Shown in pieces: positions 60,103 through 60,466 of a DNA stretch of 64,000 bases. The notes below the pieces were generated by a model that saw only the letters and a list, made by a program, of their open reading frames with translations, had not been told where the DNA came from and did not search any database. Position numbers and translations under genes: made by a program. Within the stretch, counting starts at the first letter, position 1. Every line of letters begins with the position of its first letter. Source of the stretch: Escherichia coli (GTDB lineage Bacteria; Pseudomonadota; Gammaproteobacteria; Enterobacterales; Enterobacteriaceae). The stretch lies in NCBI RefSeq assembly GCF_041248615.1, contig NZ_CP158426.1; one strand, written 5' to 3'.

Positions 60103-60466
60103 CATCCGCATTTACCTGGTATTCCATGATGAGTTCACGCAGCGACTGATAGAGGAAGGAAAGATGGTTAGCAAAAGCAAAGGCGCATTGCCGCCGCATG
60201 CTGCAGGCATTGCAACAGACGAGAGCAGATATTTTTGACCAGTTGGAAAACTGCCAGCATACTTTGCCCGAGCATATCGCCATCTCATCGGAAACCAGTG
60301 CAACTCTTATTCATCGGGTTACACCAGAGAAAAAGAAGAAATGAACAGTGAGGCGTTGTGTGGCATACAACGCCTTCTTCCATCATTTCTCGTCAGCCAT
60401 GACAAAAATATAACCGCTGGCTCTTTCATTTTTCTCCTGCTTCCAGCCCCTCTCTACCTGGAAGCA

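What the first reader, a model, noticed from the sequence alone, without database searches (positions are those of the whole stretch)
60104..60400. Short plus-strand ORFs and an intrinsic terminator downstream of the Cys-rich gene
A strong RBS (aggaagg) precedes ATG 60164 giving a 24-aa peptide, and another frame encodes a 47-aa peptide from ATG 60199 (MLQALQQTRADIFDQLENCQ...). A hairpin aggcgttgt...acaacgcct with a T-rich tail lies at about 60350-60385. This may be a small-protein operon or the remnant of a frameshifted gene.
Basis: seen in the sequence. Interest (0 to 1): 0.3.

Follow-up and report, generated by a model that had tools for sequence, protein, structure and literature searches.

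The report
Frameshifted small phage gene plus hairpin
The two short reading frames are the two halves of one 59-codon prophage gene of unknown function, broken here by a single extra A, and the hairpin just after it probably acts as a transcription stop between two genes that face each other; this is an ordinary dead copy of a small gene that is real but poorly annotated.

Summary
The window is the cos-proximal right end of a phage-21-like E. coli prophage whose late genes lie on the minus strand.

- **Frameshift.** The 24-codon ORF (ATG 60164, strong SD) and the 48-codon ORF (ATG 60198) fuse into one 59-codon ORF in phage 21. The same holds in about 98% of roughly 1,190 complete E. coli genomes that carry this region. 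The window lineage (about 22 genomes) has one extra A at 60179-60181.
- **The intact ORF is a real gene.** It matches phrog_4843 (unknown function). Homologues of 31-43% identity in Citrobacter, Salmonella and uncultured phages keep the Met start and a 55-57 aa length. They also keep the position between the packaging and lysis genes on the anti-late strand, and show dN/dS of 0.12-0.25.
- **The antisense ORF is probably a shadow ORF.** This 60-aa ORF is the one PGAP and the phage 21 record annotate (phrog_3744). It is not conserved in the distant homologues, and a nonsense variant appears in 5 of 13 haplotypes.
- **The hairpin.** The hairpin at 60350-60376 is stable and starts 5 nt after the stop, but its plus-strand U-tract is weak. 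It looks more like a bidirectional or minus-strand terminator shared with the converging TonB_C lipoprotein gene.
- **Side result.** Distant family members sit behind strong Fur boxes. The window has only a weak match.

Protein function is unknown.

The parts
60153..60159 (+). Shine-Dalgarno sequence AGGAAGG of the small gene
   Evidence: Read. Duplex with the 16S 3' end is -8.2 kcal/mol, top 4% of all ATGs in the window.
60164..60238 (+). 5' fragment of the broken gene: a 24-codon ORF. Only codons 1-6 (MVSKSK) are native; the rest is out of frame.
   Evidence: Alone it has no PHROG match.
60179..60181 (+). A-run (AAA) holding the 1-nt insertion that causes the frameshift. Phage 21 and most relatives have AA here.
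   Evidence: Alignment of 13 haplotypes: the extra A is in 2 of 13. A 61-nt probe found the 61-nt form in about 22 of 1,187 complete E. coli genomes and the 60-nt form in the rest.
60198..60344 (+). 3' fragment of the broken gene: a 48-codon ORF equal to residues 12-59 of the intact 59-aa protein. The native frame is already open from 60182.
   Evidence: phrog_4843 at E 5.3e-33, profile positions 12-59 of 59. PGAP calls it WP_223715944.1 in the identical locus.
60350..60376 (.). Stable hairpin (12-bp stem, core 60351-60359/60367-60375) starting 5 nt after the stop. Probably a terminator between converging transcription units.
   Evidence: Not called by the simple scan. The only variant seen is C>T at 60354, which keeps a G-U pair.
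60326..60349 (-). A-rich tract on the plus strand (agagaaaaagaagaaatgaacagt), which reads as a U-rich tail (UCUUUUUCUCU) after the extended hairpin on the minus strand. It also encodes the EKKKK C-terminus.
   Evidence: The minus-strand fold has an outer 8-bp helix and then the U-tract.
60077..60283 (-). Antisense ORF, 68 aa here and 60 aa in phage 21 (CPT_21_75 / WP_000881610.1 / phrog_3744). Judged a shadow ORF, not a gene.
   Evidence: Annotated; phrog_3744. A nonsense variant (60124 C>A) is in 5 of 13 haplotypes, and 378 of 1,222 genomes differ from the window in the 61-nt stretch around that site. The SD is weak at -2.5 kcal/mol. Its frame scores as noise against the distant homologue (32 vs 112), and the antisense frames carry stops in the distant homologues.
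60319..60429 (-). 36-codon minus-strand ORF that runs through the hairpin (40 aa as CPT_21_74 in phage 21). Probably spurious.
   Evidence: It has an SD of -7.4 kcal/mol but no PHROG match, and its stop codon varies (60321 A/C).
59851..60102 (+). Upstream Cys-rich signal-peptide gene (83 aa from MKIRN). It is an independent cassette and probably the first cistron.
   Evidence: Homologues of 58-76% identity in Salmonella, C. koseri and other E. coli. Homology ends at its stop codon.
60467..60793 (-). Converging late-strand gene: a lipoprotein with a TonB C-terminal domain.
   Evidence: PF03544 at E 2.6e-13. Homology of the 71%-identity group ends at its stop.
59733..59757 (.). AT-rich motif next to cosQ with a 14/19 match to the Fur-box consensus. 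It is homologous to a cos-adjacent motif in other phages, not clearly to their Fur box proper.
59688..59729 (.). cos: cosN 12-mer (59688-59699, GGGCGTCGACCT on the minus strand) and cosQ (59723-59729).
   Evidence: Ends and cosQ annotation of the phage 21 record, mapped.

Best explanation
Window 60164-60344 is a frameshift-inactivated copy of a real small phage gene of 59 codons (family phrog_4843, function unknown).

**Setting.** The gene lies on the strand opposite to the late genes, at the cos-proximal right end of a phage-21-like prophage. The order is cos, the Cys-rich secreted-peptide gene, this gene, a hairpin, then the converging TonB_C lipoprotein gene.

**The lesion.** One extra A in the run at 60179-60181 shifts the frame after codon 6. 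This leaves a 24-codon ORF that keeps the strong SD and a 48-codon ORF that keeps residues 12-59 behind a weak SD. The window copy also carries replacements at residues that are invariant in the rest of the family (Y37H, P53T; also G22D). It is therefore a decaying pseudogene, not two small genes.

**The hairpin.** It starts 5 nt after the stop and sits between two converging transcription units. Most likely it ends or stabilises both RNAs. It should be efficient for the minus-strand TonB_C transcript in lysogens, which has the better U-tract, and weaker for the plus-strand transcript. It would be read through by Q-modified polymerase in lytic growth.

**Shown:** the frameshift, family membership, purifying selection in relatives, and non-conservation of the antisense ORF.

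**Inferred:** co-transcription with the Cys-rich gene, terminator activity, and expression in lysogens.

**Most likely role of the intact protein (low confidence, about 0.3).** It has a basic N-terminal helix and a C-terminal beta-hairpin, with net charge about +5. In relatives it lies behind a Fur-box promoter, so it would be made in iron-starved lysogens. I propose it acts as a small regulatory binder of nucleic acid or of a host protein.
For: **Context.** The window is identical or 96-98% identical to E. coli prophages and to phage 21 OL657228.

**Frameshift.**
- The indel at 60179 is the only length difference in the ORF.
- Phage 21 and 11 of 13 haplotypes encode MVSKSKAHCRRMLQALQQTRAGIFDQLENCQHTLPEYIAISSETSATLIHRVPPEKKKK.
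- About 22 of 1,187 complete genomes have the 61-nt (inserted) form.

**Family.**
- The intact protein matches phrog_4843 over 1-59 of 59 positions, E 4.4e-47.
- The window's 48-aa fragment matches at E 5.3e-33.
- Distant members match at E 6e-10 to 1.5e-7.
- An exhaustive HMMER search found a 57-aa protein aligned from Met to the end, E 6e-4 in 1.8 billion proteins.
- Locus scans found further members in Citrobacter braakii, in a record deposited as a Salmonella India plasmid, and in viral contigs.

**Coding test.**
- L095 vs L136: dS 1.07, dN 0.13, ratio 0.12.
- Group 3, pooled: ratio 0.26. Only the sense frame is free of stops there.
- Phage 21 vs L095: BLOSUM62 score 112 in the sense frame, 32 in the frame of the annotated antisense ORF.

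**Synteny.** In phage loci the gene always lies between the packaging genes and the lysis cassette, on the opposite strand.

**Other support.**
- SD strength is in the top 4% of ATGs.
- A hairpin follows the stop in the relatives too. L138 has AAAAAAACCGCCctgaGGCGGTTTAAAAT, called as a terminator on the converging strand.
- The AF2 model built with the family alignment shows helix 6-28 plus hairpin 36-41/46-51.
Against: - There is no expression data of any kind.
- Within E. coli the ORF shows 1 synonymous and 4 non-synonymous differences, so there is no sign of constraint. Its 98% intactness is largely shared descent.
- A codon-usage score trained on the window's long genes favours the antisense ORF: +0.068 per codon against -0.058 for the sense ORF. 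The sense value is no worse than those of bor/iss and the TonB_C gene.
- No promoter was found for the plus strand in the window.
- The strong Fur box seen in relatives is not present here.
- The hairpin fails the terminator scan on both strands.
- The AF2 model has low confidence (pLDDT 71, pTM 0.28), and no structural or sequence relative of known function was found.
Confidence: 0.8

Rival explanations
1. The real gene is on the minus strand: the 60-codon ORF annotated by PGAP (WP_000881610.1) and in phage 21 (CPT_21_75, phrog_3744). It would be expressed as part of the late operon, and the window's frameshift breaks that gene instead.
For: - It lies on the late-transcribed strand.
- It is annotated in Nissle 1917 and phage 21.
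- It has its own PHROG.
- It has the better codon-usage score; only 4% of known spurious ORFs score as high.
Against: - A nonsense allele is present in 5 of 13 haplotypes, and 378 of 1,222 genomes differ from the window in the 61-nt stretch around that site.
- The SD is weak, -2.5 kcal/mol.
- Its frame shows no similarity to the distant homologue beyond noise (32 vs 112).
- All antisense frames carry stops in group-3 homologues.
- Protein searches found only near-identical E. coli sequences.
Confidence: 0.06
2. The region is non-coding. It would be a 3' UTR or spacer between two converging cassettes, with only the hairpin functional, and all the ORFs would be chance.
For: - Homology of both flanking cassettes stops exactly at their stop codons.
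- Four of six frames are open here.
- There is no constraint signal within E. coli.
- There are no Pfam, NCBIfam or Rfam matches.
Against: Homologues of 31-43% identity retain the start, the length, the SD and the frame with dN/dS of 0.12-0.25, in at least five different genomic contexts. That is not expected for non-coding DNA.
Confidence: 0.05
3. The two ORFs in the window are still functional: either two separately translated small proteins, or an N-terminally truncated 48-aa version that keeps activity.
For: - The 24-codon ORF keeps the strong SD.
- The 48-aa ORF keeps the conserved C-terminal two-thirds of the protein.
- The allele persists in about 22 sequenced genomes from several countries.
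Against: - The SD of ATG 60198 is weak, -3.4 kcal/mol.
- The basic N-terminus that is lost holds invariant residues (K6, H8, R11).
- The retained part carries replacements at invariant Y37 and P53.
- 18 of the 24 residues of the first peptide are out-of-frame sequence.
Confidence: 0.05
4. The extra A is compensated by programmed ribosomal frameshifting or transcriptional slippage, so that full-length protein is still made.
For: The indel lies in a run of A.
Against: The run is only 3 A long (AGCAAAGGC). From established knowledge, known slippage sites need about 7 or more identical bases or a slippery heptamer plus a stimulator, and neither is present. The relatives show no such arrangement.
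Confidence: 0.02

Closest known systems
PHROG family phrog_4843 (unknown function)
   Same: The intact allele matches the whole 59-position profile (E 4.4e-47), and the window's 48-aa fragment matches positions 12-59. Distant homologues from Citrobacter, Salmonella and viral contigs match the same profile.
   Different: The window copy is split by a +1 frameshift and carries changes at invariant residues. The family has no described function, so membership says nothing about mechanism.
Lambdoid 'moron' cassettes on the anti-late strand between Rz and cos, such as bor of lambda / iss and the DUF3950 (YlcI/YnfO) genes
   Same: The location is the same: between the lysis genes and cos/terminase. 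The orientation is opposite to late transcription. The layout is compact, with SD, short ORF and hairpin. bor/iss is present in phage 21 and Nissle at the neighbouring position. DUF3950-type ORFs occupy the equivalent slot in related prophages.
   Different: There is no sequence relationship to Bor or DUF3950. The product has no signal peptide or lipobox, so it is predicted to be cytoplasmic and basic. No promoter has been demonstrated.
Bidirectional intrinsic terminators between convergent genes
   Same: A GC-containing hairpin lies between two converging CDSs, with an A-rich tract on one side and a T-containing tract on the other. A relative, L138, has a textbook example at the same relative position.
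   Different: The plus-strand U-tract is poor, and the minus-strand U-tract is separated from the core stem by 9 nt and needs an outer helix. The simple scan does not call it on either strand. Activity is untested.
Fur-regulated small basic proteins (FbpA/B/C of Bacillus subtilis) - analogy from my own knowledge only
   Same: Both are small basic proteins of about 50-60 aa encoded directly behind a Fur box. In this family the Fur box is seen in the distant members.
   Different: No sequence similarity was tested or expected. The window's own copy lacks a convincing Fur box. The function of both groups is poorly defined.

Membership tests
phrog_4843 small phage protein | Significant match to the family profile | tested here: met
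   48-aa fragment: E 5.3e-33, profile positions 12-59. Intact allele: E 4.4e-47, positions 1-59.
phrog_4843 small phage protein | Uninterrupted ORF of 55-59 codons starting MV(A/S/T)K | tested here: not met
   The window has a +1 A at 60179-60181, and the frame is lost after codon 6. The window copy is therefore a pseudogene of the family.
phrog_4843 small phage protein | Evidence that the family is protein-coding (purifying selection, only the sense frame open) | tested here: met
   dN/dS is 0.12 (L095/L136) and 0.26 (group 3, pooled). The other five frames carry stops in group 3.
phrog_4843 small phage protein | Conserved position: anti-late strand between the packaging and lysis modules | tested here: met
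   Seen in the window, L136/L139, L138, L140-144 and L146. L095 is an exception, lying in a fimbrial/phage-remnant context.
Rho-independent (intrinsic) terminator | Stable GC-containing stem-loop directly downstream of a stop codon | tested here: met
   12-bp stem, dG -15.9 kcal/mol, starting 5 nt after the TGA.
Rho-independent (intrinsic) terminator | Run of U immediately after the stem | tested here: inconclusive
   Plus strand: only 3 T in CTTCCATC, the first 8 bases after the 12-bp stem, and the scan criterion is not met. Minus strand: UCUUUUUCUCU follows only after an outer helix, and the scan does not call it either.
Rho-independent (intrinsic) terminator | Measured termination / RNA 3' ends | not testable with these tools
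   No transcript data are available.
Fur-repressed gene | Fur box overlapping the promoter | tested here: inconclusive
   The window's best match is 14/19, at 59733-59757, about 430 nt upstream of the ORF. It is homologous to a cos-adjacent motif in other phages, not clearly to their Fur box. Most distant members have a 16-17/19 match 65-110 nt upstream (260 nt in L146), the strongest consensus match in each ~6-kb locus; L095 and L139 reach only 14-15/19.
Fur-repressed gene | Iron- or Fur-dependent expression, Fur binding | not testable with these tools
   No relevant data were found. The CFT073 Fur regulon paper PMC7157518 does not mention this locus in its main text.
phrog_3744 / WP_000881610.1 (antisense 60-aa ORF) | Profile match | tested here: met
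   The phage 21 form matches at E 3.4e-46. The window's 68-aa form matches only positions 12-60.
phrog_3744 / WP_000881610.1 (antisense 60-aa ORF) | Conservation as an ORF in diverged relatives | tested here: not met
   Its frame scores as noise in L095, there are stops in group 3, and a nonsense polymorphism exists within E. coli.
Known RNA families (Rfam 15) | Covariance-model match | tested here: not met
   No match with E up to 1 in 58800-62200.

The most novel reading that the evidence does not exclude
The phrog_4843 family would be an iron-responsive (Fur-repressed) prophage moron: a small basic protein, or a dual-function RNA that encodes it.

- It is conserved at the lysis/packaging junction of Escherichia, Citrobacter and Salmonella lambdoid prophages.
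- It is often paired with other Fur-box-linked envelope morons, namely TonB_C lipoproteins, Bor-like proteins and small Cys-rich secreted peptides.
- It is unannotated in the one RefSeq record checked for a distant member (Salmonella India).
- In the sampled intact-allele E. coli and phage 21 records the opposite strand is annotated instead.
- The window holds a dead copy of it.
Probability: 0.4. Interest if true: 0.5.

Novelty: new member of a known kind. Interest (0 to 1): 0.3.

Why it matters
For the window itself the result is mundane: a single-base frameshift has killed a small accessory prophage gene, and the 'two peptides' should not be annotated as genes.

Two wider points follow.

- **Annotation.** The two strands of this locus are annotated inconsistently in public records. 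PGAP and the phage 21 record call the antisense ORF, and PHROGs holds a family for each strand. The comparative evidence here says the plus-strand 59-codon gene is the real one. About 1,200 of the 5,426 complete E. coli genomes carry the region and may be affected.
- **Biology.** The gene's relatives sit behind strong Fur-box matches. In most loci these are the strongest consensus match, next to other envelope or iron-related morons. This points to an uncharacterised iron-starvation response carried by temperate phages of enterobacteria, and it is directly testable.

Tried and rejected
- **Family and structure searches with no informative result.**
  - Rfam found nothing.
  - Pfam, NCBIfam and PADLOC found nothing for the small ORFs.
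  - A PDB profile search gave only noise.
  - Foldseek against the PDB had a best E of 1.1.
  - The single-sequence AF2 model was one long helix. The model built with the family alignment has low confidence.
- **Word-indexed protein searches.** Searches with either strand's ORF returned only near-identical E. coli sequences.
- **Apparent 60-77% homologues (P0004, P0011, P0015).** These come from assemblies with 22-53 gap openings per kb, that is, sequencing errors. I discarded them.
- **Phage-database searches.** DNA and tblastn searches gave only phage-21-like records.
- **Within-E. coli polymorphism.** There were too few sites to tell the frames apart.
- **Codon-usage scoring.**
  - The first version was biased towards stop-free frames.
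  - The corrected version was inconclusive and slightly favoured the antisense ORF.
- **Genome-contig scans.** The first scan found nothing. The second found one Citrobacter locus.
- **Leader homology.** I found no leader homology between the window and the distant members. The only shared piece is the cos-adjacent motif.
- **Literature.** There is nothing on this ORF, its accessions, or a Fur link.
- **Considered and rejected.**
  - A programmed frameshift: the A-run is too short.
  - A role in cos function: the region is 400-700 bp from cosQ.
  - A known sRNA: there is no Rfam match.

Full report
**1. What is in the sequence**

- AGGAAGG lies at 60153-60159, followed by ATG 60164 and a 24-codon ORF ending at 60238.
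- An inverted repeat lies at 60351-60359 and 60367-60375. It folds into a 12-bp stem spanning 60350-60376, with dG -15.9 kcal/mol.
- The tail after the stem is only weakly T-rich, and a simple terminator scan did not call the site on either strand.
- The SD of ATG 60164 pairs with the 16S 3' end at -8.2 kcal/mol, in the top 4% of all ATGs in the window.

**2. Context**

The 57-64 kb part of the window is the right end of a phage-21-like (Jouyvirus) E. coli prophage. It is 100% identical to E. coli chromosomes and about 97.6% identical to phage 21 OL657228.

All late genes are on the minus strand:
- holin, endolysin and Rz at 63.8-61.9 kb;
- a lipoprotein with a TonB C-terminal domain at 60793-60467 (Pfam PF03544);
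- then cosQ (59723-59729) and cosN (59688-59699);
- then Nu1 and the large terminase.

The finding therefore lies on the strand antisense to late transcription. It sits between the Cys-rich signal-peptide gene (59851-60102, +) and the converging TonB_C gene.

**3. The frameshift**

I aligned 13 distinct haplotypes taken from 37 loci: viral contigs, phage 21 and E. coli chromosomes.
- The window lineage (2 haplotypes) has one extra A in the run at 60179-60181. The other 11 haplotypes, including phage 21, lack it.
- Without it, ATG 60164 opens a single 59-codon ORF: MVSKSKAHCRRMLQALQQTRAGIFDQLENCQHTLPEYIAISSETSATLIHRVPPEKKKK. It ends at the same TGA.
- A 61-nt probe across the site found 1,187 complete E. 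coli genomes. About 22 of them have the 61-nt (inserted) form and the rest have the 60-nt form.
- The insertion occurs in assemblies from several laboratories and in a metagenomic contig, so it is a real inherited allele and not a sequencing error.

**4. Is the 59-codon ORF a gene?**

This was not obvious at first.
- The same DNA carries a 60-codon ORF on the minus strand. PGAP annotates that ORF in intact alleles (WP_000881610.1 in Nissle 1917), and the phage 21 record annotates it as CPT_21_75.
- PHROGs holds a family for each strand: phrog_4843 for the plus ORF and phrog_3744 for the minus ORF.
- Word-indexed protein searches with either ORF returned only near-identical E. coli sequences.
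- Polymorphism within E. coli was too sparse to decide, with 1 synonymous and 4 non-synonymous differences in the plus ORF.
- A codon-usage score slightly favoured the minus ORF. The plus ORF still scored no worse than bor/iss and the TonB_C gene.

Distant homologues decided the question.
- An exhaustive HMMER search found a 57-aa protein (P0039) of 39% identity, aligned from the Met to the end. Its E-value is 6e-4 in a library of 1.8 billion proteins.
- Locus scans with the growing alignment found more members. These are 57-aa forms in Citrobacter braakii ATCC 51113 and viral contigs (43% identity), 55-57-aa forms in six further viral contigs (31-40%), and an unannotated 57-aa ORF in a record deposited as a Salmonella serovar India plasmid.
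- All members start MV(A/S/T)K.K.H. They share the motifs EY(V/I/L)S(V/I)(T/S)S and L(L)IH.VP, and all match phrog_4843.
- The pair L095/L136 has dS 1.07 and dN 0.13, a ratio of 0.12.
- Group 3 has a pooled ratio of 0.26, and only the sense frame is free of stops there.
- Between phage 21 and L095 the sense frame scores 112 (BLOSUM62). The frame of the annotated antisense ORF scores 32, which is noise level.
- A nonsense allele of the antisense ORF (60124 C>A) is present in 5 of 13 haplotypes.
- 378 of 1,222 genomes differ from the window in the 61-nt stretch around that site.
- The antisense ORF also has a weak SD.

I conclude that the plus-strand gene is real and that the minus-strand annotation is a shadow ORF.

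**5. State of the window copy**

Apart from the frameshift, the window lineage has three amino-acid replacements relative to all other E. coli haplotypes: G22D, Y37H and P53T.
- Y37 and P53 are invariant across the ten-sequence family alignment, and G22 is conserved in two of the three groups.
- The 48-codon ORF that PGAP annotates here (WP_223715944.1) lacks the basic N-terminus with invariant K6, H8 and R11, and it has a weak SD.
- The A-run is far too short for programmed slippage.

The copy is best described as a decaying pseudogene.

**6. Architecture and the hairpin**

- Homologues of the Cys-rich gene occur in Salmonella, C. koseri and other E. coli. Their similarity to the window ends exactly at that gene's stop codon.
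- A 71%-identity group of the TonB_C gene loses similarity exactly at its stop codon.
- The 363 nt between the two genes (60103-60466) is therefore a separate module holding the small gene and the hairpin.
- In phage contexts the family gene always lies between the packaging genes and the lysis cassette, on the opposite strand.
- The Salmonella India locus is a close parallel to the window. Its order is cos, a small TM/Cys-containing protein gene, the family ORF, a hairpin, then a converging Rz-like gene.
- That parallel supports co-transcription of the Cys-rich gene and the small gene in the window. Only 61 nt separate them and no hairpin lies between them. This is an inference.

The hairpin starts 5 nt after the stop.
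- On the plus strand the U-tract is poor.
- On the minus strand an outer helix extends the structure, which is then followed by UCUUUUUCUCU. That tract is the complement of the codons for the EKKKK tail.
- In L138 the same position holds a textbook bidirectional terminator, and the scan calls L138 and L140 on the converging strand.
- I therefore read the hairpin as a shared terminator or 3'-end stabiliser for two converging units, with better activity on the minus strand. This has not been tested.

**7. Function**

Nothing of known function resembles the protein.
- The AF2 model built with the family alignment gives an N-terminal helix (residues 6-28) and a beta-hairpin (36-41/46-51), at modest confidence.
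- The protein is basic.
- Most distant members have a 16-17/19 match to the Fur-box consensus upstream of the ATG, 65-110 nt away in most loci and 260 nt in L146. It is the strongest consensus match in each ~6-kb locus. L095 and L139 reach only 14-15/19.
- In groups 2 and 3 the Fur box overlaps a conserved -35 TTGA(T/A)A element.
- The window and phage 21 have only a 14-15/19 match beside cosQ. That match is homologous to a cos-adjacent motif in other phages and not clearly to their Fur box.
- Iron control is therefore likely for the family and uncertain for this lineage.
- My best guess for the intact protein is a small regulatory binder made in iron-starved lysogens. This is a low-confidence guess.

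**8. Verdict**

- The frameshift interpretation is confirmed.
- The terminator is plausible but atypical.
- The window copy is an ordinary pseudogene of a real, uncharacterised small phage gene.
- The annotation conflict and the Fur-box link of the family are the only points of wider interest.

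Noticed in passing
L140 2895-2913, L143 2896-2914, L138 2891-2909, L136 2936-2954, L146 2241-2259 (relatives); window 59733-59757: Most diverged members of the small-gene family carry a 16-17/19 match to the Fur-box consensus 65-110 nt upstream of the ATG (260 nt in L146). It is the strongest consensus match in each ~6-kb locus; L095 and L139 reach only 14-15/19. The window has only a 14/19 AT-rich motif next to cosQ.
   Followed up: partly
window 59851-60102 (+): The Cys-rich signal-peptide gene (C-x8-C-x-C-x2-C near the C-terminus) is a mobile cassette. Homologues of 58-76% identity lie next to a bor-like gene and an omptin gene in Salmonella, next to icd in Citrobacter koseri, and next to cos in other E. 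coli prophages. It has no Pfam, PHROG or NCBIfam match.
   Followed up: partly
window 60077-60283 (-) and the same locus in about 1,200 E. coli genomes: Public annotation calls the antisense 60-codon ORF (WP_000881610.1, CPT_21_75, phrog_3744) rather than the conserved plus-strand gene. PHROGs holds one family for each strand of the same DNA.
   Followed up: yes
L140 2926-2996, with the same region in L141-L145: The leader between the Fur box and the SD of group-3 genes contains two conserved hairpins. The second is GCCGCCttcgGGCGGC followed by UCUUU, directly before the SD. This could be an attenuator or a short Fur-controlled RNA.
   Followed up: no
L138 4136-4154: A second Fur-box match (16/19) lies immediately upstream of the TonB_C-like lipoprotein gene of that phage. 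It suggests that this class of prophage lipoprotein is iron-regulated. No such box was found upstream of the window's TonB_C gene.
   Followed up: no
L146 2501-2674 (NZ_CP022016.1 65233-65406): A 57-codon family member in a record deposited as a Salmonella serovar India plasmid has no annotation in the RefSeq record. The gene in front of it, a 55-aa TM/Cys protein, is labelled 'lytic enzyme'.
   Followed up: partly
window 61898-61916 (-): The best Fur-consensus match in the whole 64-kb window (15/19, GATAATTTTACTCATCATC) lies at the 3' end of Rz, about 200 nt upstream of the 95-codon minus-strand ORF at 61702-61415.
   Followed up: no
L041 2960-3100 (-), L088 3144-3335 (+): Related prophages with a 71%-identical TonB_C gene, or with the Cys-rich gene, carry a different small gene (DUF3950 / phrog_949 type) in the slot that the 59-codon gene occupies here. 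The slot next to cos therefore behaves as an exchange point for small anti-late-strand genes.
   Followed up: partly
L140 3180-3248: The terminator module after the group-3 gene is shared at 81-93% identity with many lambdoid phages (HK639, where it is annotated 'terminator', and mEp237, mEp213, mEp043) that lack the gene itself.
   Followed up: no
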